Below are positions 39,643 through 56,946 of a stretch of 64,000 nt of DNA, piece after piece. This DNA is from Candidatus Methanophaga sp. AG-394-G06 (GTDB taxonomy: Archaea > Halobacteriota > Syntropharchaeia > Alkanophagales > Methanospirareceae): NCBI GenBank assembly GCA_009903405.1, contig PRCZ01000002.1:912-64911 (forward strand), read 5' to 3'. A model generated the notes under the pieces. It made no database searches. It was not told where the DNA came from and worked only from the letters and a program-made list of their open reading frames with translations. Made by a program: the position numbers and the translations under genes. Positions within the stretch are counted from its first letter, which is position 1. Each line of letters begins with the position of its first letter.

Positions 39643-39960
39643 TTACTTTCTCAGTTCTTCCAGTCTCTTCTTTATCTGCTCTAACTGGTCCCCAAGCATC
39701 TGTGCCTGCGATTCGAGCATAGAAATCTCCTGCTCTTTCGGCACTGCTGCCATGCCCATTGGTGCAACCGGTGCAACTGCTGGTGCTTGCTGCTGTATCC
39801 AAGAAGCAAACTGCGGCATCTGTCCTGTCTGTGTGAGATACTGTGCACCCGGCGGCATTCCCGTTGGGCTTCTTCCTACCCAACCCGGAGAGTATCCAAA
39901 TCGCATCCAGCCGGGTAAACCAGTCAGATAATACATGTTTCTCCTTCCATATCCACCCAT
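39643..39960 (-). CDS. Low-complexity Gly/Tyr/Trp/Pro/Met-rich protein (105 aa) with a C-terminal coiled-coil tail (copy A)
   Basis: The N-terminus reads MGGYGRRNMYYLTGLPGWMRFGYSPGW and the C-terminus reads EQEISMLESQAQMLGDQLEQIKKRLEELRK. Positions 39640-39942 are 100% identical to 53040-53342. Confidence 0.55.
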   Translation of the reverse strand: MGGYGRRNMYYLTGLPGWMRFGYSPGWVGRSPTGMPPGAQYLTQTGQMPQFASWIQQQAPAVAPVAPMGMAAVPKEQEISMLESQAQMLGDQLEQIKKRLEELRK

Positions 39961-39987
39961 TTTTTTCTTATTGCCTCCTAAATTCTT

Positions 39988-40191
39988 TTACGGTCTTGTC
40001 ATTTTAGATCCGCATTTTGGGCAGGTCTGCTGATAGCATGGTACCCCCGTTGGATGCGGCATTGTATAGCCACAATTTGGGCATCGACATTCTCCGCTGG
40101 GGCCCAATCCGCTGCCACCCATTCTCCCTCGCCCTTGACCTCCTCGTCCTACTCCTTGACCCCTTCCGCCTCCTCTACCCATACCACTCAT
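39988..40191 (-). CDS. RGG-box plus zinc-ribbon miniprotein (67 aa, copy A)
   Basis: The N-terminal box MSGMGRGGGRGQGVGRGGQGRGRMGG is followed by CRCPNCG...CPKCGSK. Confidence 0.55.
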   Translation of the reverse strand: MSGMGRGGGRGQGVGRGGQGRGRMGGSGLGPSGECRCPNCGYTMPHPTGVPCYQQTCPKCGSKMTRP

Positions 40192-40192
40192 C

Positions 40193-40417
40193 TTATCTTA
40201 TCCCCCTCCCATAAGAATAGGGATAGCCATAATATGGCATTGGGTATATCCCTGGAGCTGGAGCTATTGCTCCATACATTCCTGTCCACCACCTTCTGGG
40301 AAGCCACGGGAAATTCCTGCAGCATGGATAAGGGTTGCCCATTCCCATACCTCTTCCTGGTCCAAAACCAGACCAAAAACCTCTTCCAAATCCTCTTCCT
40401 CTTGCCATTTTTTTCAC
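40193..40417 (-). CDS. Arg/Gly/aromatic-rich low-complexity protein (74 aa; present only in copy A)
   Basis: The sequence MKKMARGRGFGRGFWSGFGPGRGMGMGNPYPCC...YPMPYYGYPYSYGRG is wedged between the NifX-like gene and the 67-aa gene. Confidence 0.4.
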   Translation of the reverse strand: MKKMARGRGFGRGFWSGFGPGRGMGMGNPYPCCRNFPWLPRRWWTGMYGAIAPAPGIYPMPYYGYPYSYGRGIR

Positions 40418-41028
40418 CCCCTTTTAAGTTCTTCCATTCTCTTCTTCACTTCTTCCAAATCTTTCGCCAGTCTATTTGCCATGTTCGATAGTTCTTCGAT
40501 TTCTTCTTCTTTCGTTCGAGGCGTTATTGGTGCCTGCGGCGCTTGTGGTTGTGGTTGCGAAGGCACCGTTTGCTGCATGCCAAGTCCCATGCCTCTGCCC
40601 ATGCCTTGCCCTCTACCGCCGCCTCGTCCTCCACCCATGCCAAATCCGCCACCTGGAGCAATAGCACCCATACCTGCATGAGCAGAAACTGTCGAACCCT
40701 CCGTCTCGTTAAGTCCACCGGTTTTATACATTTCAACAGCTTCTTGAACCGTGCCATAGGCGCCAGTTGCAATTTTCACACCCGCCGTGGAAAGCACCTG
40801 AAAGGCATTGGGGCCTATATTCCCTGATATAACTACATTCACCCCTTTATTCACAACGGCTTGTGCTGCTTGAATCCCTGCTCCTCCCGGTGCGGTAATG
40901 GCTTCGTTTGCCATCGCTTCGAACGCCATCGTATCTGAATCAACGAACACAAAGTATTGGCACCTTCCAAACCTCGGGTCTACCTGCGCATTCCGGTCTC
41001 CCGCTGTTGCGGTTACGCATATCTTCAT
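40414..41028 (-). CDS. NifX/NafY-family (dinitrogenase FeMo-cofactor-binding fold) domain protein with a Met/Gly/Arg-rich linker and a coiled-coil tail (copy A)
   Basis: The domain is indicated by MKICVTATAG..VDPRFGRCQYFVFVD...AITAPGGAGIQAAQAVVNKGVNVVISGNIGPNAF. The linker reads GMGGGRGGGRGQGMGRGMGLGM and the tail reads KEEEIEELSNMANRLAKDLEEVKKRMEELKRG. Confidence 0.8.
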   Translation of the reverse strand: MKICVTATAGDRNAQVDPRFGRCQYFVFVDSDTMAFEAMANEAITAPGGAGIQAAQAVVNKGVNVVISGNIGPNAFQVLSTAGVKIATGAYGTVQEAVEMYKTGGLNETEGSTVSAHAGMGAIAPGGGFGMGGGRGGGRGQGMGRGMGLGMQQTVPSQPQPQAPQAPITPRTKEEEIEELSNMANRLAKDLEEVKKRMEELKRG

Positions 41029-41067
41029 CTTTCATCTTCTCCCTTTTTGTTTTTTTTCTTCCACATG

Positions 41068-41081
41068 TGAATATATATTCA
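41068..41081. promoter_or_regulatory. Perfect palindrome TGAATATATATTCA upstream of NifX-like operon A (candidate operator and TATA-overlapping site)
   Basis: The identical 14-mer recurs at 54298-54311 and 54738-54751. Confidence 0.5.
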
Positions 41082-41097
41082 TATGAGTATGTAAATG

Positions 41098-41946
41098 TTA
41101 CTTCTTCTCTTCTTTACCTTCCACAAATGCCTGCACATTTTCCACTATCTGCCCAAATGCGTCTTTTACTTTCGATTCCTTTTGCATGACAAATGGCGTT
41201 CCGCTATCCGCAGCTTCTACCATCTGCGGGTCTAACGGCACTCTTCCAAGAAAAGGCACTCCTAACTCCGCCGCTGCCCTTTCTCCGCCTCCATATTTGA
41301 AGATATTTGTCGCTTTCCCACAGTATGGACACACAAACCCACTCATGTTCTCTATTATCCCTATAACCGGCACCTTCAGCACCCCTGAGAAGTTTACTGC
41401 CTTTCTTGAATCTAACAATGCTAAATCCTGCGGTGTTGTAACAATTATCGCGCCATCTACATTCTTTATCAACTGCGCAACACTGAGTGGCTCGTCGCCC
41501 GTCCCCGGCGGAAGGTCAACAATCATATAGTCCAGCTCACCCCAATCAACATCTGAAAGGAATTGCCTTATCGCATTCATCTTCATCGGTCCTCGCCAGA
41601 TGATCGGGGAATCTCTATCTGGTAACAGAAAACCTATGGACATCGCTTTTAGCCGTGGTGTGACTAAAATAGGCGACATTTTCCCCCCTGATGTCTCTGG
41701 CCGCTTGTCCTCTATCCCCAATATCTTTGGAATATCCGGCCCGTGTATATCAGCATCCATCAAACCCACGTCTAAACCGCTCATAGCGAGAGCAAAAGCA
41801 AGATTTGCTGCTACCGTTGTTTTCCCTACACCCCCTTTTCCACTCATCACCATTACCTTATGCTTTACCTTTCTCATGCTTGTATCAACTGCTTCCGCTT
41901 CTTCTTTCATCCCTCTTTTCCTTTCTTCCTCTTCTCCTTCATCCAT
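41098..41946 (-). CDS. apbC: Mrp/ApbC/NBP35-family Fe-S cluster carrier ATPase
   Basis: The P-loop is [10 protein letters not shown], and the C-terminal CPYCG motif is present. Confidence 0.85.
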
Positions 41947-44222: not shown

Positions 44223-44278
44223 GTTTACGAGAAATAAAAAGCGAAAAGTATTTATACATGGATTTGTAATCTATTAGC

Positions 44279-46784: not shown

Positions 46785-46865
46785 CTATGTACTATTAGAT
46801 GTCACATCATAGTAAACTTTAGCCGCCCTAAAAAAGCAAAATAATCTTATAGAAGCCCCATCCAT

Positions 46866-47349
46866 GTCACGCCCGGAATGAAATAGTGCCAAATGGCCAG
46901 TACTTCAGCATTGGCTGATAAATATAATCAAAACAGAGGTACTGGAAAATGAAAAGGAAGCAGGAAAAAGAGCGATATTATAGACTGCCCTTTAAGACAC
47001 TGGACCGGCAGTTCCAACAAGAAGCGATTGAAGGTTTGAGCTGTTCACCACTGGAGGCAAAAGCACTTACCGAGATTGTTAAAGAAGATTTTTTTAGAGA
47101 AAAAAGATCCGGTACAGGTAGCAAGAGAGACAGATCACAGTCCAGAAGCAGAGGGGAAGTATTGCCAGCAGTTTAATAAAGTGAAGTGGTGTGTGGAAAA
47201 TGAGATGGGTAAGGATGAGATAAGGATTGTTACCGGAATGAAAGCACATTTAATAGATGAATACCTAAAGATTATGGAGGAGCATAAAACAGCCCTTCCT
47301 CCTTAAGGGGTACTGGCCAAATGGCACAACATAAATTCCGGGGCATCCC
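46866..47349. mobile_element. MITE-like element of about 480 bp bounded by imperfect 40-bp inverted repeats
   Basis: The left end reads cccggaatgaaatagtgccaaatggccagtac. The right end reads gtactggccaaatggcacaacataaattccggg. The interior contains a small frameshifted ORF. Confidence 0.4.
46949..47306 (+). pseudogene. Small ORF inside the inverted-repeat element, split across two overlapping frames (46949-47176 and 47076-47306)
   Basis: The T7 and A6 homopolymers at about 47090-47105 are plausible slippage sites. The product is unrecognised. Confidence 0.3.
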
Positions 47350-47370
47350 TTTGTATATGCCCTCGGTTTC

Positions 47371-48129
47371 TTATTTTCTTTCGTTTATTATTTTTGGACA
47401 AACATCTTTAATAGGACATTCATCACACTTTGGATCAGTAGGACGACACCATCCCTTTTCCATTCCTATATCCCATATTGGAAAATCCAATTCACCGGGA
47501 TCCTCGGGATTTAATTCTCTTGCACTTTGAAGTATCGTATTTTTATCATCTGTTTTCGCTAAACCCGTTCTTAAAAAGACCCGTTTAACATGTATATCAA
47601 ATGAAATGTTACTTTCACTTTTATCGCCTACTCCCTTCCTTAAAACACGAATAAGTATATTCGTTGCCATTGATGCTTTTTTCTGCCCGATACCTTTGAA
47701 TAATTCAAATCTCCGTTGCAAATCAGCATATCCAGGGTTACCATTCCAAATGTTTGCTGCGTTTCCCTCATATCTATCTATTAACATTTTACACGCATCT
47801 TTTATATATGCTGCATACTTATTGGGAAATCGGTGCAGTTTTGGTGCTTCATTAAAAATGACTTTTAGTTCATCGTCTTTCATTTCAGAAATCTTTTTAA
47901 CATCGAGATGTCCAAGTCTCTGTTTCAAAATAAAAGGTTTTTCCCACGCCTGTTCCGCAGTTATACTTTGATCAAATATCACACCGAAAAGAAATGCATT
48001 TGGGTCATCTACCAGCAATTTATTTACCTCGGGATTCAGCGTTGGTTCAAATTTTGTCACTTTCAACGTCCGACCGTATTCGAGGATCTTATTTACTACT
48101 TTTTGTTTTTCTTCCATAGTCTGTATCAC
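47371..48129 (-). CDS. HhH-GPD-superfamily DNA glycosylase (endonuclease III-like) with a C-terminal [4Fe-4S] cluster loop
   Basis: The HhH motif is GIGQKKASMATNIL. The Cys loop is WCRPTDPKCDECPIKDVCPK (Cx6Cx2Cx5C). Confidence 0.6.
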   Translation of the reverse strand: MIQTMEEKQKVVNKILEYGRTLKVTKFEPTLNPEVNKLLVDDPNAFLFGVIFDQSITAEQAWEKPFILKQRLGHLDVKKISEMKDDELKVIFNEAPKLHRFPNKYAAYIKDACKMLIDRYEGNAANIWNGNPGYADLQRRFELFKGIGQKKASMATNILIRVLRKGVGDKSESNISFDIHVKRVFLRTGLAKTDDKNTILQSARELNPEDPGELDFPIWDIGMEKGWCRPTDPKCDECPIKDVCPKIINERK

Positions 48130-48135
48130 TAACTA

Positions 48136-48783
48136 TTATTTCCTTGCGTACCATAGGTTCGCTACATAAACCAATAGAGGTATAATGGCAAAATCTACAC
48201 TATATCCCAACAGATTTTCCGCTGTTTTGGAGGTAGTAACTATTCCAATTAGTACGATTAATACCGCTGCAAACCCTATGAAAGCAGAATAAACAATTTT
48301 AGCTCTTTCTGTTAATTTGTACATCCCGTAAAGAGTATAGAAATATGTTACAACCATTATCAAGTATGAAACGACTATTGCACTCATAAAAGAACTGGGA
48401 GACTTTTCACTTCCGACAATACCACCAATTACGAATAAAAGGGCCAAAAATCCAAAGATGCCATTTAGCACCATCAAAACTTTTCGCAATCTGATTTTTG
48501 GCACTAATGTTGACAGATCTGGACTAATCAGTTTGTATCCGGTGTAAATGATAATTATAGATGCGATAATTGCAAGGATAAGTCATATTCCTATATTTGC
48601 CCCTGCTAATGCTCCAAATGGATCTCCTTCAAGTTCACTTTCCATTTGGCGGATAGCATAAGAAACAGCGAGTAAGCTCGTTACACTGAAAATAGCCATA
48701 AGTGCACCAACACCGATTAATCCTTTTGCTTTTGTACTTGGTTTTGACATCCAAGAGATTCCAAATGCCGCTAAAGCCAACAA
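48136..48783 (-). pseudogene. Membrane protein interrupted by a single in-frame TGA (48583-48585)
   Basis: The sequence ...ALAGANIGI is followed by TGA and then LILAIIASIIIIYTGYKLISPDLSTLVPKIRLRK in the same frame. Both halves are TM-rich. Confidence 0.4.
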
Positions 48784-48818
48784 GAAATAAATGGTACCAA
48801 AATAGGTACCACTATAAG

Positions 48819-49106
48819 TTAGCTATAGAACGCATTTATATCTTTTGTAATTCCAAGAATTTGCACTGTCACCCAAGGAAGGAACGATGCTATAATTGCA
48901 AGGGCTGGACCAATGAACAGAGTTATGTCAAATTTCTTCATAACCAATTTCAAATCAGCTTTTTTCTCCTCTTCAAAAAGTTCACACACACAATCTTTAC
49001 AATAATTTTTGCCTTCAATATTCACTCTACACTCAGCGCAGATAGCTTTACCACAATTGGCGCAAACTCCTATCGCCTCGCGTTCGAGATGTTTTTCACA
49101 TTTCAT
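48819..49106 (-). CDS. B-box-like zinc-finger protein with a C-terminal TM segment
   Basis: The Cys/His cluster reads MKCEKHLEREAIGVCANCGKAICAECR...CKDCV and is followed by a hydrophobic helix. Confidence 0.45.
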   Translation of the reverse strand: MKCEKHLEREAIGVCANCGKAICAECRVNIEGKNYCKDCVCELFEEEKKADLKLVMKKFDITLFIGPALAIIASFLPWVTVQILGITKDINAFYS

Positions 49107-49222
49107 TTTTTACAGACGGGCATTTCCTTTTTAAGTCACTATACTTAAGCACGACCGCCGATAACTTAAACTACCCTATTAGCATAGGTATGACCTAGGA
49201 TTATAAAAGCTTTCCGATTTTT

Positions 49223-49760
49223 TTATTTTTGATCTTTCCCTCCAAAAAGTTTGTTATAAAGCGATGTGTACCTGTGCGCTTTAAGTTTCTCCTTTTCTTC
49301 AGCTATCACAGGAGCAGTATCTGTCTTCTCGTAACCCTTCTGCCCCGATATATACCTCTCTACCACTTCCCAGCCATGCCCTACTGAGCCATGATAACAA
49401 GAAGGCGCCCACAGATGACTCGGGCACCACTCCTTAAGCTGCGGGAATCGATCCCTCAACAGCTTACTACTTCTACCCTTTATCCGCTTCGCTATCCAGC
49501 TTACCGAATACTTCGGTGGACTGCGAAGCATTTCTGTGAAACATTTTTGATAAAACTTTTCTTAAATGTTTTGTAAACGCTTTTTCTAAAAGGGTTTTTA
49601 TGAACAAAGGTACATGATCCACATTCATTGCCATGTCTATAATCGCAATATCAAGCTCTTTGCAGGTTTCCCTGAGAATTTCTCCCGCCACCTCTGCAAC
49701 ATCCCCGAGCTATACCTTCCAGCGATATTTCAGTGAAAAACAGGAATTTCATCCCGGTAA
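49223..49760 (-). mobile_element. tnpA: Degraded IS200/IS605-family tnpA (Y1 HuH transposase) with frameshifts
   Basis: The 102-aa ORF reads SPPKYSVSWIAKRIKGRSSKLLRDRFPQLKE...HLWAPSCYHGSVGHGWEVVERYI, which matches the TnpA C-terminal half. The overlapping 72-aa ORF in another frame has DIAIIDMAMNVDHVPLF, corresponding to the HuH region. Confidence 0.6.
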
Positions 49761-49824
49761 AGTTTTCAAACAGAGCAGGGAGCAGGGAGATCAAATACAA
49801 CATTCAATTTGTAATTCATTCATA

Positions 49825-50691
49825 CTAATTTATACCATCCCACACCACCTTTATCGCATCCGATACCACCCCTTCTGCGAATTCAACCACCGGCATACCC
49901 GCAACCATCGCTTCAGTGACCACGGAGTCGTATGGTATGTTGCCAACAACTTGTATTCCTCGCTGTCTGCAAAACTCGGTAATCCTCTTGCTGTTCTCTT
50001 CATTAATGTCGTATTTATTGATGCAGACGGCGGAAGCAATACCGAAATGTCTGGTCACATCCATGATTCGTTCGAGGTCATGCAGTCCGGACATCGTGGG
50101 CTCGGTAACGATGAGCGCAAGGTCCACACCGGCCAATGACGCAATTACAGGGCAGCCGATGCCCGGCGATCCGTCAATCAGAATGAGTTCACAGCCCTCT
50201 TTTTCTGCAACCTGCTGTGCATTGTTTCTAACAACAGTGACCAGTTTTCCTGATGCCTCTTCCGCGATATTGAGCTGCGCATGCACCATTGTGCCATAGT
50301 TAGTCTTTGATATAAATGCATAGCCCGAGACACGTTCTTTCAGCGTAACCGCTTCCTGTGGACACGTAAACACACAAGCGCCACAGCCCTCACAACGTGC
50401 GGGATTGACTGCATAGCCTGATTCTTCGGTCGAAGCAATAGCGTTGAATCGACATGTTTCTTCGCACGTTCCACACTCGGAGCATAGCGTTTTATCTATA
50501 ACGGCAACTTTCACGCCTTTAAACTCCTCCTTCTTTATGATTTCCGGATGTAGCAGCAGATGGAGGTCTGGTGCGTCTACATCGCAGTCTACAATGACTT
50601 TGTTCTCTACAAGGGCCGCGAACGAGCCCACAAGGGTTGTCTTCCCCGTGCCACCTTTTCCACTAATAACCGTTATTTGTTTCATTTGCAT
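49825..50691 (-). CDS. MinD/ParA-family P-loop ATPase with an inserted 2x[4Fe-4S] ferredoxin domain (COG1149, CooC-like)
   Basis: The P-loop is ISGKGGTGKTT. Two CxxCxxCxxxCP clusters are present. Confidence 0.8.
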   Translation of the reverse strand: MQMKQITVISGKGGTGKTTLVGSFAALVENKVIVDCDVDAPDLHLLLHPEIIKKEEFKGVKVAVIDKTLCSECGTCEETCRFNAIASTEESGYAVNPARCEGCGACVFTCPQEAVTLKERVSGYAFISKTNYGTMVHAQLNIAEEASGKLVTVVRNNAQQVAEKEGCELILIDGSPGIGCPVIASLAGVDLALIVTEPTMSGLHDLERIMDVTRHFGIASAVCINKYDINEENSKRITEFCRQRGIQVVGNIPYDSVVTEAMVAGMPVVEFAEGVVSDAIKVVWDGIN

Positions 50692-50772
50692 ATACCTTTT
50701 ATAATCACAAGATTACACACATTTTTACAAAAACCCTTTTCTTAGAAAGAAAAGCTGTACCAAAAGAACTAT

Positions 50773-50850
50773 TTTTTCTTTTAGCACAGGCTAAATTTTC
50801 TTTTTTAAAAAAGAAAAAGTGTTGTGTAAATCTTGTGTAATCTCGTGGTT
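50773..50850. repeat. Intergenic repeat of about 70 bp, copy 2 (see 4565-4632)
   Basis: It is nearly identical to copy 1. It has an extra GTGTAATCT duplication at the 3' end and lies between the two MinD-ferredoxin genes. Confidence 0.7.
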
Positions 50851-51703
50851 ATAATAGAACTTTATCAATTATCCCTGCAAATCGCTCCTTCCACTCCGGC
50901 ATCGCCTTCACAAAGGGCACGCCCTCAGAATAGTAACGTGCAATCCGCGTGTCATGTGGAATCTCAAGCAAAATCGGAATCCCTTCCTTCTCGCAGTACT
51001 CATACACCTTTCGATCCCCAATCCCTGCTTTATTTATAACCATGCCAAAAGGAATCTTAAGCACTCTGAGCACCTCAACTGCAAGCCTCAAATCGTAGAG
51101 CCCAAACGGGGTGGGCTCAGTCACAAGAATGCAGTAATCGCTTCCTTGCACGGCTGCAATCACCGGGCATGCCGTTCCCGGTGATACATCAATAATCACT
51201 GTCTTTTCCGGATCAAGGTCCGCTTTTACCTGGTCGATCAGCGGTGTTGCCATTATCTCCCCGATATTCAACACCCCGTACACGAGGTCAACGTTGCCGT
51301 CACCGCTTTTTCCTGTTTTTATAACGCCGATCTCCCTCGGTTCCTCGCTGATCGCATCCTGCGGGCATACTAAGGAACATAACCCACAGCCGTGGCAAAG
51401 TTCCGGAAACAGCATTACTTCTTTTTGTGGCACCGCAACAAGAGCGTTGTATTCACACGCCGCAGCACACTTACCGCAGTAATCACACAAATCGTAATTG
51501 ACCCTTGGCACCAGCGTATACGCCGGCTTTATCTCCTCGATCACCGGATTAAGGAAGATATGTGAATTTGGCTCTTCTACATCGCAATCCATTAATTGTA
51601 CGTTCGAAAGCGACAGAGCCAGATTAACAGCTACGGTTGTCTTTCCCGTACCGCCTTTGCCGCTTGCTACCGCAATAATCATCGGTTCACCGTTTTGTTG
51701 CAT
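50849..51703 (-). CDS. MinD/ParA-family ATPase with an inserted ferredoxin domain, second paralogue
   Basis: The P-loop is ASGKGGTGKTT and Cys clusters include CDYCGKCAAAC and CHGCGLCSLVCP. The start was set at the internal Met to avoid the overlap. Confidence 0.8.
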   Translation of the reverse strand: MQQNGEPMIIAVASGKGGTGKTTVAVNLALSLSNVQLMDCDVEEPNSHIFLNPVIEEIKPAYTLVPRVNYDLCDYCGKCAAACEYNALVAVPQKEVMLFPELCHGCGLCSLVCPQDAISEEPREIGVIKTGKSGDGNVDLVYGVLNIGEIMATPLIDQVKADLDPEKTVIIDVSPGTACPVIAAVQGSDYCILVTEPTPFGLYDLRLAVEVLRVLKIPFGMVINKAGIGDRKVYEYCEKEGIPILLEIPHDTRIARYYSEGVPFVKAMPEWKERFAGIIDKVLL

Positions 51704-51714
51704 TGTGCGTCCCA

Positions 51715-52074
51715 TTAATGCCGGTGCATTTTGCACGCATTGGCATCACTAGCTTCGTTGAGTCTCCCTGCCTGAAAAGCGCTTATTGCTTCGCTTACCG
51801 TACCACTGGCGCCTACATACACCTCTATCCCCAACTGTTCAAACGCGCTTATTGCACGAGGGCCTAATCCGGAACAGAGCATTATCTCTGCACCCGCACC
51901 TGCTACGAGATCCGGTGTATTGCCTACACCGCCAAAATGTTCACCCGTGTTCTGCACAATTTCCACCTTGTTACTCACCATATCCACAACAGTAAATGTT
52001 GGTGCTCTTCCAAAATGCTCACTTACAAGATCTTCCAATCCTCCATTTCCCAATGAGGGAATGCATAGTTTCAT
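51715..52074 (-). CDS. NifX/NafY-family domain protein (stand-alone, 119 aa)
   Basis: The sequence reads MKLCIPS.........HFGRAPTFTVVD...GVGNTPDLVAGAGAEIMLCSGLGPRAISAF. Confidence 0.75.
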   Translation of the reverse strand: MKLCIPSLGNGGLEDLVSEHFGRAPTFTVVDMVSNKVEIVQNTGEHFGGVGNTPDLVAGAGAEIMLCSGLGPRAISAFEQLGIEVYVGASGTVSEAISAFQAGRLNEASDANACKMHRH

Positions 52075-52078
52075 ATGT

Positions 52079-52570
52079 TCATCTCCTCTCTTTTTTATTC
52101 CTCTTTTTATTCCTATTCTTATTCTTACTCTTATAATCTTCCAGAGCTGCTCTTAGCGTGTCCATTGCAAGCACAGAGCAATGAATGTTTTCTTCCGGTA
52201 AACCACCCAAAACGGATAAAACGTCCTTGCCCTCTACCGTGAGTGCTTCTTCGATTGTCTTACCTTTCACCAGTTCTGTAACCACGCTTCCACATGCCAT
52301 TGAAGCACCACAACCATCGGTTATGAATTTGCAATCTACGATTTTATTCTCTTCAACTTTAATATGCATCTGCAGTGTGTCTCCGCAGGGGCCGGTTACT
52401 CTGGCAGCACCACTGGGGGCTTCCAGTTCACCAACGTTTTTTGGGTTGTATGCCGCCTCAAGTGTCTTCTCAGTGTATATTCCCCTTTCCTCTTCTAATA
52501 TTTCCTCTTCCATCTTCTTGGTTAGTTCATCGAAATCGGAAGTTTCATTTTTTTCGGTTATTTTTTCCAT
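52079..52570 (-). CDS. IscU/NifU-N-like Fe-S scaffold protein with an acidic N-terminus and a polybasic C-terminal tail
   Basis: The conserved ligands are GPCGD, DGCGAS and HCS. The tail reads KSKNKNRNKKRNKKERR. Confidence 0.7.
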   Translation of the reverse strand: MEKITEKNETSDFDELTKKMEEEILEEERGIYTEKTLEAAYNPKNVGELEAPSGAARVTGPCGDTLQMHIKVEENKIVDCKFITDGCGASMACGSVVTELVKGKTIEEALTVEGKDVLSVLGGLPEENIHCSVLAMDTLRAALEDYKSKNKNRNKKRNKKERR

Positions 52571-52619
52571 TTTACCTGCATTTCATCACGCATTTTTTAA
52601 CGTTTAAATATTTACACAC

Positions 52620-52931
52620 TTATAGCTCTTCGATACTTCTTTCCATCTCTTCAACTTTGGACCTTACGACGTTTAATTGCGTTTTTAGCCTCTCTAGTAC
52701 TGGATCTCTCTGCAAAATTGGAGATGAATGTGGGGCTATTTGGATGGCACCCTTTGGACAAGCCCGTACACAAGCAGTGCAGCAGATACACCTGTTAAAA
52801 TCCACTACTGCTTTTTTATCAACAATTCCAATCGCACCGGTACAGCAAACCGCGGTGCACTTTCCACACCCTACGCATAGTTCTTCGTTAACAAAAGCTT
52901 TCCAAGCTAATGATTGTATAGATTGCTGCAT
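52620..52931 (-). CDS. 2x[4Fe-4S] ferredoxin with a C-terminal coiled-coil tail
   Basis: The clusters are [11 protein letters not shown] and [12 protein letters not shown]. The tail reads [25 protein letters not shown]. Confidence 0.75.
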
Positions 52932-52965
52932 AGCACACTAAAAAAGAAAAAGGAGCAAGAAAGAG

Positions 52966-53004
52966 CTATCTTCTCGCTTTTCCACACAGTTCGCATTTAC
53001 CCAT
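52966..53004 (-). pseudogene. Truncated copy of the 55-aa zinc-ribbon gene (12 codons, MGKCELCGKARR-stop) at the edge of duplication B
   Basis: It is homologous to the start of the 39436-39603 gene. Confidence 0.4.
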
Positions 53005-53043
53005 TCCCTTCTCCTCATGTTTCTAATTGGCCCTTTCCACTCT

Positions 53044-53361
53044 TTACTTTCTCAGTTCTTCCAGTCTCTTCTTTATCTGCTCTAACTGGTCCCCAAGCAT
53101 CTGTGCCTGCGATTCGAGCATAGAAATCTCCTGCTCTTTCGGCACTGCTGCCATGCCCATTGGTGCAACCGGTGCAACTGCTGGTGCTTGCTGCTGTATC
53201 CAAGAAGCAAACTGCGGCATCTGTCCTGTCTGTGTGAGATACTGTGCACCCGGCGGCATTCCCGTTGGGCTTCTTCCTACCCAACCCGGAGAGTATCCAA
53301 ATCGCATCCAGCCGGGTAAACCAGTCAGATAATACATGTTTCTGTGTCTATTTCCTCCCAT
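53044..53361 (-). CDS. Low-complexity Gly/Tyr/Trp/Pro/Met-rich protein (105 aa) with a coiled-coil tail (copy B)
   Basis: It differs from copy A only at residues 4-7. Positions 53040-53342 are 100% identical to 39640-39942. Confidence 0.55.
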   Translation of the reverse strand: MGGNRHRNMYYLTGLPGWMRFGYSPGWVGRSPTGMPPGAQYLTQTGQMPQFASWIQQQAPAVAPVAPMGMAAVPKEQEISMLESQAQMLGDQLEQIKKRLEELRK

Positions 53362-53388
53362 TTTTTTCTTATCGCCTCCTAATTTTTT

Positions 53389-53592
53389 TTATGGTCTCGC
53401 CATTTTAGACCCGCATTTTGGGCAGCTCTGCTGATAGCATGGCACCCCCGTTTGATGCGACATTGTATAGCCACAATTCGGGCATCGACAATCTCCGGCA
53501 GGACCCAATCCGCTGCCACCCATTCTCCCTTGCCCTTGACCTCCTCGTCCTATTCCTTGACCTCTTCCTCCTCCTCTACCCATGCCACTCAT
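53389..53592 (-). CDS. RGG-box plus zinc-ribbon miniprotein (67 aa, copy B)
   Basis: The sequence reads MSGMGRGGGRGQGIGRGGQGQGRMGG...CRCPNCG...CPKCGSK. It is identical to copy A at 62 of 67 residues. Confidence 0.55.
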   Translation of the reverse strand: MSGMGRGGGRGQGIGRGGQGQGRMGGSGLGPAGDCRCPNCGYTMSHQTGVPCYQQSCPKCGSKMARP

Positions 53593-53603
53593 CTTATTTT
53601 ACG

Positions 53604-54248
53604 TCACCTCTTTTTAAGTTCTTCTAGCCTCTTCTTCACTTCTTCCAAATCTTTCACCAGTCTATTAGCCATGTTCGATAGGTCTTCGATTTCTTCTTCT
53701 TTCGTTCGAGGCTTTATTGGTGCCTGCGGCGCTTGTGGTTGCGAAGGCAGTGGTTGCTGCATGCCAAGTCCCATACCTCTGCCCATACCTCTGCCCATGC
53801 CTTGCCCTCTACCGCCGCCTCGTCCTCCGCCCATGCCCATACCCATGCTCGTGCCCATGCCAAATCCGCCACCCGGTGCAGTAGCGCCCATACCAGCATG
53901 AGCAGCTACTGTTGAAGTACCTGTCTCACCTAACTTACCGCCTTTATACATCTCAACAGCTTCTTGTACCGTGCCATAAGCGCCTGTTCCAATTTTCACA
54001 CCAGCGGTGGACAACACTTGAAAAGCATTGGGACCTATATTCCCCGAAATGACTACATTCACACCTTTATTCACCATTGTTTGTGCCGCCTGAATTCCCG
54101 CTCCACCCGGTGCGGCAATCGCTTCGTTCGCCATCGCTTCAAATGCCATTGTCTCCGAATCTACGATTACAAAGTATTGGCACCTTCCAAACCTCGGGTC
54201 TACCTGTGCATTCAGGTCTCCTGCCGTTGCGGTTACGCATATCTTCAT
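53604..54248 (-). CDS. NifX/NafY-family domain protein with a Met/Gly/Arg-rich linker and a coiled-coil tail (copy B)
   Basis: The domain is the same as in copy A. The linker is longer (GMGTSMGMGMGGGRGGGRGQGMGRGMGRGMGLGM) and the tail reads KEEEIEDLSNMANRLVKDLEEVKKRLEELKKR. Confidence 0.8.
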   Translation of the reverse strand: MKICVTATAGDLNAQVDPRFGRCQYFVIVDSETMAFEAMANEAIAAPGGAGIQAAQTMVNKGVNVVISGNIGPNAFQVLSTAGVKIGTGAYGTVQEAVEMYKGGKLGETGTSTVAAHAGMGATAPGGGFGMGTSMGMGMGGGRGGGRGQGMGRGMGRGMGLGMQQPLPSQPQAPQAPIKPRTKEEEIEDLSNMANRLVKDLEEVKKRLEELKKR

Positions 54249-54297
54249 CTTTATCTTTCACCTTCTTCCTATAGATTTTGATTTTTTCTTCTTTATG

Positions 54298-54311
54298 TGA
54301 ATATATATTCA
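54298..54311. promoter_or_regulatory. Palindrome TGAATATATATTCA upstream of operon B, with a TATA-like TATATAAA at 54318-54325
   Basis: On the coding strand the order is TTTATATA, 6 nt, palindrome, about 45 nt, ATG. Confidence 0.5.
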
Positions 54312-54332
54312 TATGAGTATATAAATGATAGA

Positions 54333-54734
54333 CTATGATGAAACCAAAGGATCTCCACCACGCCCATGTCTCCCTCTTTTCCAGTCAGGAGACAGTTTCG
54401 AAAGGGGCACATGCGTTTCATTGTTAGCACTCAATATTACATAATTACCGCCTTCTATTCTTATTGCTTTCCCTTCAACAAAAGCTTCTGCTATCTTCCG
54501 ATGTGCTTCGCTTACTATTCGATGGAATGTAGGTTGCGAAACGCCCATTTTTTTCGCTGCTTCTTCCTGACTTAGCCGCTGATAGTCTTTAAGCCTTATG
54601 CTCTCCAGTTCTTCCACTTTCAATATCAATCTTTCATAGACCTCAGGATTAGGCGTTCTTTCACCTCGTCGTGGCTCGAAGAGGAGGAAATTTGGCTTGA
54701 CGCTTACGCACCTGCACAGTCTTCGCCCTGGCAT
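54333..54734 (-). CDS. DUF134 (UPF0251) predicted DNA-binding protein
   Basis: The N-terminus is MPGRRLCRCVSVKP. The sigma-70 region-4-like HTH reads LSQEEAAKKMGVSQPTFHRIV, followed by GKAIRIEGG. The start was set at MPGRR rather than the upstream ATG that lies inside the palindrome. Confidence 0.75.
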   Translation of the reverse strand: MPGRRLCRCVSVKPNFLLFEPRRGERTPNPEVYERLILKVEELESIRLKDYQRLSQEEAAKKMGVSQPTFHRIVSEAHRKIAEAFVEGKAIRIEGGNYVILSANNETHVPLSKLSPDWKRGRHGRGGDPLVSS

Positions 54735-54737
54735 ATA

Positions 54738-54751
54738 TGAATATATATTCA
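54738..54751. promoter_or_regulatory. Third copy of the palindrome TGAATATATATTCA, 3 nt upstream of the DUF134 start codon
   Basis: The site is seen directly in the sequence. Autoregulation is inference. Confidence 0.5.
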
Positions 54752-54852
54752 CAATACACGTTAAAGTTTCACACTTTAATTTTTTCGAGATGTTGCAATC
54801 TTGAGAATACTAGCAGTACAACATGAAAAAGTCGGATCTTCAGCAGAGTGTC

Positions 54853-56037
54853 TTAACCCCCCTTCTTACCCTTATACCCCTTATATACCTCACGTTGTAT
54901 AATAAACCGCATTATCTCATTTGTGCCCGCGGGAATCATAGACAACCTCGCCATCCGGAACGCCCATTCCGCGGGATATTCGTCTGCGAGTCCCCGGCCA
55001 CCCAATATCTGTACAGTGTTATGCGCAACTTCGTAAAACGCCTCAGAAGCAAGAAGCTTTGCCATCGCCGATTCCTGCTCTGCTTCGAACCCCCCATCAA
55101 TCAGCCTAACGGTATGATAGACCATCAACTTAGCAGCTTCTAACTTCGTCACCATGTCCGCGATTTTGAAACTTATTGCCTCGAATCGGCTTATCGCGGT
55201 CCCGAACTGCTCCCTATCCATTGAATATTCGACCGCGAGTTCTAGTATTGGTCTCGCCTCGCCAACTAACATCGCGGCATATAACACTCGCTCAATAGAT
55301 AACTCATCGAACATTACCCTTGCCCCTTCGTTCTCGCCGCCGAGCATATTTTTCCCCGGTACTCGCACATCATCAAACCTGAGATAAGAATTTACCGTGC
55401 CTGGAAACCCGCCCAGTAGCTTATAATCACGCTTCACCTCAAACCCCTTAGTGTCTGATTCCACAATGAACACGCTTATTCCCTTTGCCGGATCAACCAC
55501 AGGATTTGTTATCGCCCATACTAAGAGGACATCCGCTTTACTACCATTTGTTATGTTCCTCTTCTCTCCACAGATCAGATACTCATCGCCTTTTCGCTCT
55601 GCGCTTGTCTTGATACGCATAACGTCACTTCCCGCTTCGGGCTCAGTTATCGCAATTGCACCGATCTTAGCACCGCTTTTCATTGCAGGCAAATAGATAC
55701 TCTTCTGCTCCTCGTTACCATACCGTGCAATCGTTGCGTATGCATAAGAGGAGGTGGAATGTATCCATGCGAGCGGCACGCAAGCAGCACCAAGTTCCTC
55801 TGCCAATATCGCTTCATATACCAATTTCCCCCTGCCACCATATTCTTCGGGCAATACAGGCGCTAAGAAGCAGGCATCGCCTAGTTTAGCGTAGAGTGCT
55901 CGCGGATAAAAATCCCGTTCATATATCTCACGCTCTATCTTCTTCGCATCCACGCCCTCAAGGAACGCTCTCAGCGATTCTCTGAATTCGCTCTCAGCCG
56001 CAGAGAAAAGGATCTCTTCTTTATTTTGCATCTTCAT
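54853..56037 (-). CDS. Acyl-CoA dehydrogenase family protein
   Basis: The ACAD fold is indicated by an N-terminal helical region, a middle beta domain and the C-terminal FGGYG-like region. Confidence 0.8.
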   Translation of the reverse strand: MKMQNKEEILFSAAESEFRESLRAFLEGVDAKKIEREIYERDFYPRALYAKLGDACFLAPVLPEEYGGRGKLVYEAILAEELGAACVPLAWIHSTSSYAYATIARYGNEEQKSIYLPAMKSGAKIGAIAITEPEAGSDVMRIKTSAERKGDEYLICGEKRNITNGSKADVLLVWAITNPVVDPAKGISVFIVESDTKGFEVKRDYKLLGGFPGTVNSYLRFDDVRVPGKNMLGGENEGARVMFDELSIERVLYAAMLVGEARPILELAVEYSMDREQFGTAISRFEAISFKIADMVTKLEAAKLMVYHTVRLIDGGFEAEQESAMAKLLASEAFYEVAHNTVQILGGRGLADEYPAEWAFRMARLSMIPAGTNEIMRFIIQREVYKGYKGKKGG

Positions 56038-56040
56038 TTC

Positions 56041-56946
56041 TCACGCGAATTTAGCAACAAGTTCGCCCCTTCTCACTCCTATATCATCCGCTATTGGTTC
56101 GCATTTCGCTCTGAAGAGGTATATTAACCGGCCGTTCAGATCTAACTTCGATTCAAACTCGGATATTGATTCGTAGTTCCCCATCCCCTTCGCTATCACC
56201 AGATACCTATCATCGCTGAACACGTCCATGAACTCCCCCTCCGCTTCTTCTAATGATACACCTATGTATGCGCCACTCGGAATTATCTTACACCCCGCTT
56301 CGGAAGAAGAGATACCCGCTTCCTTTAGATCTTCTATCGTTGCATCGTTTATAACAGGTGCGCTCTTCGGCGACACAATCACCTCTTTACCCATTTTTAT
56401 CAACTCCCTTATCACAAACACATCGAAAAATACCTCGCCTGCATTGTCCGTTAGATATATCAACCGCTCTCGGCTATTTATCGCGGCTAAAATCACGCTC
56501 CTATCCCAATTAAGTTTCTCGTTTAAAGTCCGCAAGAAATCACGTCTAAAAATTTCATCGCTGTATGAATACCCTTTTACGCCATATTCCATTGAATTCG
56601 CCGCTGCCGCTATCCGTATCAACGCTTCTAGTTTATCTCTTGCCGCATTGTAAAAGGTATACGCTTCTAAAAGCAACCCTTTTGCTACTTTGTTACTTCG
56701 CCGTTTTACCAATTCGTGAGGATCTTCCGCGCCACTTCGCCTCTTTAATATTCTCTCCCTCTCGGTGCCAAAAAAAACAGGCGCGTTCAGTTCACCTTCG
56801 AGATGTTCAAAAAGGAAAGCAATAAAATCCCTCAGCACAAGTATCTTTTCTTTATCATCCTCAAATAGAATATCACACTCATATTTCGTCCTTTCTACCA
56901 AGCAAGGGATACAGTCGGATTTAAGCTTCATTTCCTGTTTGTTCAA
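56041..56946 (-). CDS. DUF89/ARMT1-like metal-dependent phosphatase
   Basis: The N-terminal CIPCLV, the DNAGE motif and the KGMGNYE motif are present. Confidence 0.6.
   Translation of the reverse strand: MNKQEMKLKSDCIPCLVERTKYECDILFEDDKEKILVLRDFIAFLFEHLEGELNAPVFFGTERERILKRRSGAEDPHELVKRRSNKVAKGLLLEAYTFYNAARDKLEALIRIAAAANSMEYGVKGYSYSDEIFRRDFLRTLNEKLNWDRSVILAAINSRERLIYLTDNAGEVFFDVFVIRELIKMGKEVIVSPKSAPVINDATIEDLKEAGISSSEAGCKIIPSGAYIGVSLEEAEGEFMDVFSDDRYLVIAKGMGNYESISEFESKLDLNGRLIYLFRAKCEPIADDIGVRRGELVAKFA

What the first reader, a model, noticed from the sequence alone, without database searches (positions are those of the whole stretch)
54298..54751. The 14-bp perfect palindrome TGAATATATATTCA at both NifX-like operon promoters and at the DUF134 regulator gene
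The 14-mer occurs exactly three times in 64 kb: at 41068, 54298 and 54738. Each copy sits 3-50 bp upstream of a start codon on the minus strand. At operons A and B it lies just downstream of a TATA-like element, which is the classic archaeal repressor position. At the third site it abuts the ATG of the DUF134 gene, a predicted HTH DNA-binding protein. This fits an autoregulated DUF134 operator controlling the metallocluster module.
Basis: partly seen in the sequence, partly recalled or inferred. Interest (0 to 1): 0.6.

Follow-up and report, generated by a model that had tools for sequence, protein, structure and literature searches.

The report
Conserved operator of the DUF134 regulator
The 14-base palindrome is real and is most likely the DNA site bound by the uncharacterised DUF134 regulator to control its own gene and a neighbouring metal-cluster gene set, a pairing conserved across many archaeal lineages and, in altered form, in bacteria.

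Summary
TGAATATATATTCA occurs exactly three times in the window (0 expected), and no 1- or 2-mismatch copies occur elsewhere. Each copy lies 6 nt downstream of a TATA-like octamer and 3-49 nt upstream of a minus-strand start codon. Two copies (41068, 54298) belong to a ~1.5 kb duplication, so there are two independent contexts, not three.

- In 32 of 36 loci whose DUF134 recognition helix reads SQPTFHR-like, the same palindrome lies near DUF134. These loci span ANME-1, Syntrophoarchaeum, Methanosarcinales, Woese-, Aenigm-, Alti- and Hadarchaeota.
- A motif-first metagenome scan, not seeded with DUF134, gave 94 distinct first downstream ORFs. Of these, 59 are DUF5320, DUF134 or NifX-like.
- Where the helix reads SRPTF(T/Q)R, in bacteria and in a DPANN-like archaeal subclade, the palindrome becomes TGAACATATGTTCA. 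This is a symmetric change at positions 5 and 10.
- DUF134 Gln67 aligns with Arg34 of B. subtilis DeoR. In the DeoR-operator crystal structure, Arg34 touches position 10 of a TGAA-N6-TTCA operator.

The most likely mechanism is that a DUF134 dimer binds between TATA box and transcription start, repressing itself and the NifX/DUF5320 operons. Binding, the sign of regulation and the effector are inferred. I found no prior description.

The parts
54738..54751 (-). Operator copy 1 (TGAATATATATTCA) in the DUF134 promoter. It ends 3 nt before the DUF134 ATG.
   Evidence: The same arrangement occurs in orthologous loci L001-L020.
54758..54765 (-). TATA-like octamer TTTAACGT, 6 nt upstream of operator copy 1. 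It begins 31 nt before the ATG, so the DUF134 mRNA is probably leaderless (inference).
   Evidence: Sequence. Conserved as cTTTAAcg in L001-L006, L009 and L010.
54333..54734 (-). DUF134 (UPF0251) HTH protein of 133 aa, the proposed cognate regulator. Its recognition helix begins at S66-Q67-P68-T69-F70-H71-R72.
   Evidence: Pfam PF02001, E = 4.5e-26. S66, Q67, T69, F70 and R72 are invariant in alignment A1. The model places H2 at 56-63 and H3 at 67-87.
54298..54311 (-). Operator copy 2, in the 84-nt gap between DUF134 and the NifX-like/DUF5320 gene (locus B), 49 nt before that gene's ATG.
   Evidence: Orthologous sites occur in L001-L006.
54318..54325 (-). TATA box TTTATATA, 6 nt upstream of operator copy 2.
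49825..54248 (-). Locus B target operon. Genes: NifX-like+DUF5320 fusion (53604-54248), Zn-ribbon protein (53389-53592), DUF5320 (53044-53361), ferredoxin (52620-52931), NifU_N (52079-52570), NifX-like (51715-52074) and two MinD-type ATPases with ferredoxin inserts (50849-51736, 49825-50691).
   Evidence: The same gene order occurs in L001-L014.
41068..41081 (-). Operator copy 3 (locus A), in the 69-nt gap between the Mrp/NBP35 gene and the second NifX-like/DUF5320 gene, 39 nt before its ATG. It is a paralogue of copy 2.
   Evidence: The Mrp-[palindrome]-NifX arrangement is the common one in L009-L014.
41088..41095 (-). TATA-like octamer TTTACATA, 6 nt upstream of operator copy 3.
39643..41028 (-). 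Locus A target genes: NifX-like+DUF5320 (40414-41028), a 74-aa Gly/Arg/aromatic-rich protein (40193-40417), Zn-ribbon protein (39988-40191) and DUF5320 (39643-39960).
41098..41946 (-). Mrp/NBP35-type Fe-S carrier ATPase gene immediately upstream of operator copy 3.
   Evidence: Pfam PF10609, E = 4.9e-101.

Best explanation
TGAATATATATTCA is the operator of the DUF134 (UPF0251, PF02001) helix-turn-helix protein encoded at 54333-54734. I propose that a DUF134 dimer binds the palindrome with one recognition helix per TGAAT half-site. In this model the invariant Arg72 reads the outer TG and Gln67 reads the T:A/A:T pair at positions 5 and 10.

In each promoter the 14-mer starts 6 nt after the TATA octamer. 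That places it at about -17 to -4 relative to the predicted transcription start. A bound dimer there would let TBP and TFB bind but would block RNA polymerase recruitment or promoter opening.

The window therefore holds three regulated promoters:
- the DUF134 gene itself (negative autoregulation, probably a leaderless mRNA);
- two paralogous promoters driving NifX-like/DUF5320/Zn-ribbon genes, one of which continues into ferredoxin, NifU, NifX and MinD-ferredoxin ATPase genes.

What is shown: the sites, their geometry, their conservation, and their covariation with the DUF134 helix. What is inferred: physical binding, dimer stoichiometry, repression rather than activation, and the transcription starts. 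The effector is unknown. Candidates are a metal or Fe-S species sensed directly, or sensing through NifX-like or DUF5320 partners.
For: 1. Specificity in the window. There are three exact copies, 0 expected, and no near-copies elsewhere.

2. Conservation. The core GAATATATATTC (up to 1 mismatch) occurs 54 times in 750 kb of loci fetched through DUF134. Almost all copies are in archaeal loci, 5-54 nt before DUF134, NifX-DUF5320, Zn-ribbon or Mrp starts, or at the head of DUF5320-DUF134 operons. The lineages include ANME-1, Syntrophoarchaeum, Methanosarcinales, Woese-, Aenigmat-, Alti- and Hadarchaeota. The consensus of 46 sites is aA..TTTa.ata.t.tTaT-GAATATATATTC-ATA, so the TATA box is at a fixed offset.

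3. Motif-first census. A metagenome scan with TTTAW-N10-GAATATATATTCA, not seeded with DUF134, gave 120 loci. Of 94 distinct first downstream ORFs, 47 are DUF5320, 9 DUF134 and 3 NifX-like. In 10 of 19 DUF5320-led operons with at least 1.5 kb of downstream sequence, DUF134 is in the same operon.

4. Protein-DNA covariation.
- Q-type helix (SQPTFHR): 32 of 36 loci have TGAATATATATTCA within 2 kb, and none has TGAACATATGTTCA.
- R-type helix (SRPTFTR or SRxTFQR): 0 of 39 have type A and 12 of 39 have type B.
- In the R-type loci there are 19 type-B sites against 0.1 expected.
- The switch recurs inside archaeal BRE/TATA promoters for a DPANN-like SRPTFQR subclade. L038, L202-204, L205, L206, L209 and L212 all carry type B and none carries type A.

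5. Structural analogy. The confident core of the model (residues 34-97) is an HTH whose third helix starts at S66-Q67. The best structural and sequence matches include the B. subtilis DeoR DNA-binding domain on its operator (7bhy: rmsd 0.6-0.7 A over 40 residues, 30% identity; HMM E = 0.0015). The DeoR operator ATTGAACAAAATTTCAAT is also TGAA-N6-TTCA. In that complex Arg39 contacts the G of TGAA, and Arg34 (the R of ISRPTVSR) contacts T12, which is position 10 of the 14-mer (PMC11229326). DUF134 Gln67 aligns with Arg34 and Arg72 with Arg39. Gln with A:T and Arg with G:C are the usual pairings (general knowledge).

6. Selection within the duplication. Between the two window paralogues the TATA+operator block is 32/33 identical, while the 5' UTR just downstream has diverged with indels.
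Against: - No binding, footprint, transcription-start or expression data exist for this or any DUF134 protein that I could find.
- Q-type loci are nearly all archaeal and R-type loci mostly bacterial, and many loci are close relatives. The Fisher p-values are therefore not phylogenetically corrected. The within-archaea SRPTFQR subclade is the main control, and it may represent only one or a few evolutionary events.
- Only 12 of 39 R-type loci showed a type-B site at up to 1 mismatch, so many bacterial DUF134 genes use other sites or none nearby.
- About half of the DUF5320-led operons found by motif carry no DUF134 in the sequenced stretch.
- The same 14-mer fits the bacterial ARG-box consensus and ArsR-type operators (L089, L125), so other HTH families can read such sequences.
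- The structural model is poor outside residues 34-97 (mean pLDDT 61). Dimerisation was not modelled.
Confidence: 0.82

Rival explanations
1. DUF134 binds the palindrome but acts as an activator or dual regulator, not a repressor.
For: Nothing in the data fixes the sign of regulation. In Bacteroidota the type-B palindrome lies just upstream of the -7 TAnnTTTG element, over the -33 region. In principle that position could allow contact with the sigma factor.
Against: In every archaeal promoter examined the site lies between the TATA box and the predicted start, not upstream of BRE. Characterised archaeal activators usually bind upstream of BRE (general knowledge). At the DUF134 gene the site ends 3 nt from the ATG. 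Thirteen of 60 DPANN-type promoters carry a second site 23-25 bp further downstream, over the transcribed leader, which is typical of repressors.
Confidence: 0.1
2. A different transcription factor encoded elsewhere, for example an ArsR/SmtB-type metal sensor or an ArgR-like protein, binds the palindrome. DUF134 would then merely be one of its target genes.
For: The motif-first scan also hit a bacterial argR promoter (L089), two arsR genes (L125, L148) and a heavy-metal-associated gene (L099). TGAATATATATTCA fits the ARG-box consensus TNTGAATWWWWATTCANW (recalled from memory).
Against: No ArgR or ArsR homologue was found in the window by tblastn (best E = 0.83), although 64 kb cannot exclude one elsewhere. 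The target genes are not arginine genes. The palindrome covaries with the DUF134 recognition helix, not with any other protein. DUF134 is the only DNA-binding protein consistently encoded in these operons across phyla.
Confidence: 0.05
3. The palindrome has no protein-specific role. It would be an AT-rich core-promoter sequence (a second TATA-like or easily melted region) or a relic of the duplication.
For: Two of the three window copies are explained by the duplication. The centre, ATATATAT, resembles a TATA box.
Against: A generic AT-rich element would not keep 12-14 identical bases across archaeal phyla. It would not be confined to one gene neighbourhood, and it would not switch symmetrically to TGAACATATGTTCA with a change in the protein. 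The third window copy has unrelated flanks.
Confidence: 0.02
4. The element acts at the RNA level, as a hairpin that serves as a processing, terminator or translational signal in the DUF134-NifX transcript.
For: It is a perfect inverted repeat lying in short intergenic gaps.
Against: The predicted hairpins are weak and no better than shuffles at the two NifX sites (-1.3 and -4.2 kcal/mol, z = 0.13 and -0.29). No Rfam family matches. Sequence, not pairing, is conserved, because the loop bases are invariant too. At the DUF134 gene the element precedes the probable start of the mRNA.
Confidence: 0.01

Closest known systems
B. subtilis DeoR (SorC family, HTH subclass) DNA-binding domain on its operator (PDB 7bhy, 8r7y; PMC11229326)
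   Same: - It is the closest solved relative of the DUF134 HTH by sequence (E = 0.0015) and among the best by fold (rmsd 0.6-0.7 A, 30% identity).
- Its recognition-helix motif ISRPTVSR compares with VSQPTFHR or ISRPTFTR in DUF134.
- Its operator half is TGAA-N6-TTCA (ATTGAACAAAATTTCAAT), with the same outer half-sites and spacing. A dimer binds one palindrome.
- Arg39 contacts the G of TGAA, and Arg34 contacts position 10.
   Different: - DeoR is a 313-aa protein with a C-terminal sugar-phosphate effector domain and works as a tetramer on a 39-bp bipartite operator.
- DUF134 is about 100-135 aa. It has a conserved N-terminal MPRPRxCRRV...FKP segment and a C-terminal GKAIRIEGGNY motif, and no SorC effector domain.
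- DeoR controls nucleoside catabolism in Firmicutes from a sigma-70 promoter.
Archaeal repressors that bind between the TATA box and the transcription start (for example MDR1 of Archaeoglobus, NrpR of Methanococcus, LrpA and Phr of Pyrococcus; recalled from general knowledge)
   Same: A palindromic operator lies just downstream of BRE/TATA and overlaps the start region. The regulator's own gene is autoregulated. The likely mechanism is a block of RNA polymerase recruitment.
   Different: The protein families are unrelated (DtxR, NrpR, Lrp, wHTH) and the operators differ. None of them has an operator known to be conserved almost base for base from DPANN lineages to Halobacteriota.
Desulfovibrio vulgaris ORP (orange protein) gene cluster and its regulator OrpR (PMC8359166, PMC3897727, PMC6345978)
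   Same: The gene content of the regulated module is similar: a NifX-like (ORP-type) protein, MinD-type ATPases with ferredoxin inserts, and an Mrp/NBP35 Fe-S carrier, in an anaerobe-specific cluster. The NifX-like domain here gives a partial hit to the MrpORP model.
   Different: The D. vulgaris operons are driven by sigma-54 with the enhancer-binding protein OrpR and IHF. None of these exists in archaea. Here control is proposed to come from a small HTH repressor at a TATA promoter. I recall, but could not verify, that the first orp1 gene (DVU2107) is itself a DUF134 protein.
Bacterial ARG box / ArgR, and ArsR/SmtB-type operators
   Same: The 14-mer fits the ARG-box core TGAAT-WWWW-ATTCA. 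One scan hit is an argR promoter (L089), and others precede arsR genes.
   Different: The window has no ArgR or ArsR gene and no arginine or metal-efflux target genes. It has single, not tandem, boxes. The covariation is with DUF134, not with these families.

Membership tests
Pfam PF02001 DUF134 / UPF0251 (the protein at 54333-54734) | Match to the family HMM above the gathering score | tested here: met
   91.7 bits against a cut-off of 27, E = 4.5e-26, profile positions 8-97 of 98.
Pfam PF02001 DUF134 / UPF0251 (the protein at 54333-54734) | Conserved N-terminal MP(G/R)RR.CR.V...P....F.P segment, HTH with the SQPTFHR helix, and C-terminal GKAIRIEGG motif | tested here: met
   Alignment A1 of 46 sequences. 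Invariant residues are P14 F19 P21 E42 E44 R47 L48 K49 D50 Q56 A59 A60 S66 Q67 T69 F70 R72 K80 A82 A84 G88 R92 G95 G96.
Cis-regulatory operator of a dimeric HTH repressor | Dyad-symmetric sequence that is statistically unexpected and confined to promoter regions | tested here: met
   (window). (46 sites at a fixed offset from the TATA box).
Cis-regulatory operator of a dimeric HTH repressor | Conserved in front of orthologous genes in distant genomes, and linked to one regulator gene | tested here: met
   Motif-first census of 59/94.
Cis-regulatory operator of a dimeric HTH repressor | Covariation between operator bases and recognition-helix residues | tested here: met
   SQP with TGAATA and SRP with TGAACA, replicated in archaeal promoters. 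Not phylogenetically corrected.
Cis-regulatory operator of a dimeric HTH repressor | Physical, sequence-specific binding by the regulator and an effect on transcription | not testable with these tools
   Needs EMSA or footprinting, in vitro transcription, or ChIP/DAP-seq.
SorC/DeoR family regulator | N-terminal HTH DNA-binding domain of the DeoR type | tested here: inconclusive
   Weak but consistent similarity: HMM E = 0.0015 to the DeoR DNA-binding domain and Foldseek rmsd 0.6-0.7 A over 40 residues. ECF sigma region 4 scores equally well.
SorC/DeoR family regulator | C-terminal sugar-phosphate-binding effector domain (NagB-like), giving a protein of about 310 aa | tested here: not met
   The protein is 133 aa. 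Only PF02001 and HTH families match. Residues 98-133 are predicted disordered.
ARG box (ArgR regulon) | 18-bp imperfect palindrome TNTGAATWWWWATTCANW (consensus recalled from memory) | tested here: met
   All three window sites fit the core.
ARG box (ArgR regulon) | Tandem boxes, an ArgR gene in the genome, and arginine metabolism genes downstream | tested here: not met
   The boxes are single. There is no ArgR homologue in the window (the rest of the genome was not available). The downstream genes are DUF134, NifX-like and DUF5320.
ORP-type (orange protein) anaerobe-specific metallocluster module | Co-located NifX-like/ORP protein, MinD-type ATPases with ferredoxin inserts, and an Mrp/NBP35 ATPase | tested here: met
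   Pfam hits Nitro_FeMo-Co, CbiA+Fer4 (two genes) and ParA/NUBPL. The gene order is conserved in L001-L014.
ORP-type (orange protein) anaerobe-specific metallocluster module | Formation of a physical ORP complex, and sigma-54/OrpR control | not testable with these tools
   Complex formation needs biochemistry. Sigma-54 and OrpR are bacterial and do not apply to an archaeon.

The most novel reading that the evidence does not exclude
DUF134 could be an ancient, widely distributed master repressor of an anaerobe-specific metal/Fe-S-cluster handling module. That module comprises DUF5320, NifX-like carriers, MinD-ferredoxin and Mrp ATPases, EncFtn-like proteins and ArsP-type permeases. Its operator would have been kept almost base for base from DPANN archaea to ANME-1, and retuned by a single Gln-to-Arg change in bacteria and one archaeal subclade. 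Its activity might be set by the cluster-loading state of its NifX-like or DUF5320 partners. In some lineages these domains are fused to DUF134.
Probability: 0.3. Interest if true: 0.75.

Novelty: new member of a known kind. Interest (0 to 1): 0.6.

Why it matters
DUF134 (UPF0251), DUF5320 and the NifX-like/MinD-ferredoxin clusters are common in anaerobic archaea and bacteria but have no assigned function. Pfam and NCBIfam still call DUF134 unknown or hypothetical. No structure is solved. I found no paper on its function or on this motif.

A defined operator, a predicted base-reading residue and a list of target gene families turn this into a directly testable regulon. It is also an unusually clean natural example of a Gln/Arg to A:T/G:C specificity switch. 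For uncultured ANME-1 methane oxidisers it identifies a likely control point for a metallocluster module. The kind of system, an HTH autorepressor with a palindromic operator over the core promoter, is itself ordinary.

Tried and rejected
- RNA-level role. Hairpins at the three sites are weak and no better than shuffles at two of them. No Rfam family matches in 40800-55000. Rejected.
- ArgR or ArsR as the binder. tblastn with the ArgR and ArsR proteins found next to chance-like scan hits gave nothing in the window (best E = 0.83). Made unlikely, but not excluded genome-wide.
- Extra weak sites in the window. The loosened patterns GAAT-N4-ATTC and TGAA-N6-TTCA gave only one extra hit at background level (28821). 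The 3-mismatch hits are at chance frequency. The permease pair, the radical SAM genes, the Mrp gene and the DUF89/acyl-CoA dehydrogenase genes in the window have no detectable site.
- Literature. Searches for DUF134, UPF0251, COG1342, DUF5320, PF02001 and both palindromes returned nothing relevant. Fievet et al. 2011 and Soltysova et al. 2021 are not held. The identity of DVU2107 and the high-resolution DeoR contacts could therefore not be checked at source.
- Solved structures. No DUF134 structure exists in the PDB by sequence.
- The sigma-70 promoter/terminator scanner was not used because the organism is an archaeon.
Full report
**1. The observation**

TGAATATATATTCA occurs exactly at 41068-41081, 54298-54311 and 54738-54751 and nowhere else in the 64 kb. 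Dinucleotide-preserving shuffles give 0.00 expected. Relaxing to 3 mismatches adds only five 3-mismatch hits, which is the chance level (8 found, 5.87 expected). There are no 1- or 2-mismatch copies. TGAA-N6-TTCA occurs only at these three sites.

Read on the minus strand, each copy has a TATA-like octamer exactly 6 nt upstream: TTTAACGT, TTTATATA and TTTACATA. Each is followed by a start codon after 3, 49 and 39 nt.

- 54333-54734 is a DUF134/PF02001 HTH protein.
- 53604-54248 and 40414-41028 are NifX-like (Nitro_FeMo-Co) domains fused to DUF5320.
- Downstream come a Zn-ribbon protein, DUF5320, ferredoxin, NifU_N, a second NifX-like protein and two MinD-type ATPases with ferredoxin inserts.
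- An Mrp/NBP35 ATPase gene (41098-41946) precedes the copy at 41068.

The window comes from an ANME-1 (Methanophagales)-like archaeon. The DUF134 protein is 85-96% identical to proteins encoded in Methanophagales/ANME-1 and related archaeal MAGs.

**2. Two contexts, not three**

An alignment of 53000-54345 with 39600-41110 shows a ~1.5 kb duplication at 87% identity, including about 300 nt of perfect identity in the DUF5320 genes. Homology begins exactly at CATTTAYATACTCATATGAATATATATTCACAT (32 of 33 identical). The 5' UTR just after it has diverged with indels, and the coding region resumes at about 88%.

The copies at 41068 and 54298 are therefore paralogues. The promoter/operator block is the best-kept part of the intergenic DNA. 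The copy at 54738 has unrelated flanks and is the independent occurrence.

**3. Conservation elsewhere**

I fetched 80 genome loci by DUF134 similarity. The palindrome sits directly before the DUF134 start in ANME-1, Syntrophoarchaeum, Methanosarcinales and other Halobacteriota at 60-96% protein identity. A second copy usually lies before the NifX-DUF5320 gene. The usual order in relatives is DUF134-Mrp-[palindrome]-NifX/DUF5320-Zn-ribbon-DUF5320-Fd-NifU-NifX-MinD-MinD (L009-L014). The window has this module split into two loci.

In Woese-, Aenigmat-, Alti- and Hadarchaeota the same 12-14 bases follow a canonical BRE/TATA (cgaaa-TTTAAATA-N7-GAATATATATTC-AT). There they head operons that begin with a DUF5320 gene and continue with DUF134, NifX-like, MinD-ferredoxin, EncFtn-like and permease genes.

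In total the core (up to 1 mismatch) occurs 54 times in 750 kb of these loci, almost always in such positions. The consensus of 46 sites places the TATA box at a fixed offset.

**4. A motif-first test**

The loci above were chosen through DUF134. I therefore scanned the metagenome collection with TTTAW-N10-GAATATATATTCA, which contains no information about DUF134.

Of 94 distinct first ORFs downstream of the motif, Pfam assigns 47 to DUF5320, 9 to DUF134 and 3 to Nitro_FeMo-Co. Most of the rest have no ORF or no family, lack the BRE/TATA consensus, and look like chance hits. In 10 of 19 DUF5320-led operons with enough downstream sequence, DUF134 follows in the same operon.

In this sample the palindrome in a promoter-like context is found mainly at this gene neighbourhood, not at unrelated loci. 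One caveat is that the TTTAW anchor biases the scan toward archaeal promoters.

**5. Who binds it**

Bacterial DUF134 loci lack the palindrome. Many carry TGAACATATGTTCA instead, in front of DUF134, DUF5320, NifX-like and DUF89 genes. The difference is symmetric: T to C at position 5 and A to G at position 10.

It tracks the DUF134 recognition helix.
- Q-type loci (SQPTFHR or SQPTFNR) have type A in 32 of 36 cases and type B in none.
- R-type loci (SRPTFTR or SRxTFQR) have type A in 0 of 39 and type B in 12 of 39.
- The R-type loci hold 19 type-B sites against 0.1 expected.

Domain of life confounds this comparison, so I looked for R-type proteins in archaeal contexts. L038 (Methanosarcinales, SRSTFQR) has TTTATAAA-N6-TGAACATATGCTCA before an EncFtn-DUF134 operon. 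A search seeded with that protein found a DPANN-like subclade with SRPTFQR, 75-90% identical to Q-type neighbours. Every contig with upstream sequence (L202-204, L205, L206, L209, L212) has TGAACATATGTTCA, or a 1-mismatch variant, behind an archaeal BRE/TATA. None has type A.

DUF134 is also the only DNA-binding protein consistently present in these operons.

**6. Structural rationale**

The AlphaFold model is confident only for residues 34-97. It shows a short strand, helices 40-51, 56-63 and 67-87, and a second short strand. This is an HTH whose third helix starts at S66-Q67-P68.

Foldseek finds ECF sigma region 4 and the B. subtilis DeoR DNA-binding domain bound to its operator (7bhy: rmsd 0.6-0.7 A over 40 residues, 30% identity). 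A profile search of PDB sequences puts DeoR first (E = 0.0015), aligning VSQPTFHR with ISRPTVSR.

The DeoR left half-operator is ATTGAACAAAATTTCAAT, which is TGAA-N6-TTCA, the geometry of the DUF134 palindromes. In the DeoR-OL18 crystal structure R39 contacts G4 and T14, and R34 contacts T12 (PMC11229326). In the numbering of the 14-mer, G4 is position 2, T14 is position 12 and T12 is position 10.

By the alignment, DeoR R34 corresponds to DUF134 residue 67 (Gln in type-A lineages, Arg in type-B). DeoR R39 corresponds to the invariant Arg72. The residue that varies is thus predicted to touch the base pair that varies, and the invariant Arg the invariant TG. Gln with adenine and Arg with guanine are the usual pairings (general knowledge). 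This mapping is by homology, not a model of the complex.

**7. Mechanism**

With the TATA octamer at about -31 to -24, the 14-mer covers about -17 to -4. In characterised archaeal systems, repressors bound there allow TBP and TFB to bind but block RNA polymerase (general knowledge: MDR1, NrpR, LrpA, Phr).

For the DUF134 gene the TATA octamer begins 31 nt before the ATG. The mRNA is therefore probably leaderless and the gene autorepressed.

Thirteen of 60 DPANN-type promoters have a second GAAT-N4-ATTC exactly 23-25 bp downstream. This suggests cooperative binding of two dimers. The window's promoters have single sites.

In Bacteroidota the type-B site lies about 10 nt upstream of the -7 TAnnTTTG element, over the -33 region. 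That position is also compatible with occlusion of the promoter.

The sign of regulation, the stoichiometry and the effector are inferences. Fusions of DUF134 to Zn-ribbon or NifX-like domains in some lineages, and the nature of the target genes, hint at a metal or Fe-S-cluster signal.

**8. Rivals**

- An RNA hairpin is unlikely. The predicted stabilities are weak and shuffle-like, no Rfam family matches, and the loop bases are invariant.
- A generic AT-rich promoter element cannot explain the gene-family specificity or the covariation.
- The 14-mer fits the ARG-box consensus and ArsR-type operators, and a few scan hits are such bacterial sites (L089, L125). The window has no ArgR or ArsR homologue, the targets are unrelated, and the covariation points to DUF134.
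- An activator role for DUF134 remains possible at about 10%.

**9. Comparison with known systems and novelty**

The protein is a member of PF02001. It is not a SorC/DeoR family member because it lacks the effector domain, but it probably shares that family's mode of DNA reading.

The regulated module resembles the Desulfovibrio ORP cluster, which is controlled quite differently, by sigma-54, OrpR and IHF (PMC8359166, PMC3897727).

I found no description of a DUF134 function, operator or regulon in Pfam, NCBIfam, the PDB or the searchable literature. Subscription literature is largely not covered.

The finding is therefore a new member of a familiar kind: an HTH autorepressor with a palindromic operator. 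It is notable for how strictly the operator is conserved across archaeal phyla and for the clean specificity switch.

Noticed in passing
window 39643-39960 versus 53044-53361 (and 39600-41110 versus 53000-54345 overall): The two DUF5320 paralogues share about 300 nt of perfect identity inside a duplication that is otherwise about 87% identical. This suggests recent gene conversion between the two loci. Locus A also has a 74-aa gene (40193-40417) that locus B lacks.
   Followed up: partly
window 53604-54248, 53389-53592, 53044-53361, 40193-40417, and the C-terminus of 54333-54734: Nearly every small protein of the module carries Gly/Arg-rich repeats (GRGxGRG, RGG). This includes the NifX-DUF5320 fusions, the Zn-ribbon proteins, the 74-aa protein and the disordered tail of DUF134 (GRHGRGG). 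The shared low-complexity motif is unexplained. It might be a common interaction or targeting signal.
   Followed up: no
L027, L041, L077, L093, L101, L108, L124, L132, L138, L142, L156, L170, L193, L198 and others: Many DPANN-type promoters have a second, weaker palindrome (TGAATAnnnATTCA) 23-25 bp downstream of the first. It is present in 13 of 60 promoters, all at offsets of 23-25. This suggests tandem operators. The ANME-1 window promoters have single sites.
   Followed up: partly
window 44763-45341 and 45338-45799: This pair of membrane proteins is clearly homologous by eye to the permease pair inside DPANN DUF5320/DUF134 operons (L027, L043, L077; a Pfam ArsP_1 hit in L201). In the window they lie 9 kb away behind a radical SAM gene and have no detectable palindrome.
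   Followed up: partly
window 56041-56946 and 54853-56037; L059 6795: A DUF89-like gene and an acyl-CoA dehydrogenase-like gene lie directly upstream of DUF134, in the same order in L003 and L004. In the cultured bacterium Prolixibacter denitrificans a type-B palindrome precedes a DUF89 homologue. DUF89 may therefore belong to the regulon in some lineages.
   Followed up: no
L026, L027, L038, L155, L167, L210: EncFtn-like (encapsulated-ferritin-like) genes sit inside the motif-controlled DUF5320/DUF134 operons of several DPANN-like archaea. This points to iron handling.
   Followed up: no
L089 4227-4254; L125 2992-3019; L099; L148: The same 14-mer occurs at a bacterial argR promoter (an ARG box), before arsR genes and before a heavy-metal-associated gene. 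Unrelated HTH families use near-identical palindromes, which is a caution for motif-only regulon predictions.
   Followed up: partly
L027, L029, L033, L077, L158, L166; proteins P0122, P0126, P0131, P0212: In several lineages DUF134 is fused at its C-terminus to a Cys4 Zn-ribbon, like the separate Zn-ribbon gene of the window, or to a NifX-like domain. The separate window genes may therefore act together with DUF134.
   Followed up: no
L040, L051, L057, L061, L069, L079, L080 and other Bacteroidota loci: Only about a third of bacterial R-type DUF134 loci show TGAACATATGTTCA at up to 1 mismatch. Helix variants SRATFGR and SRQTFGR (Ignavibacteria, Zixibacteria, Spirochaetes) show neither type and may have a third, unidentified operator.
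   Followed up: no
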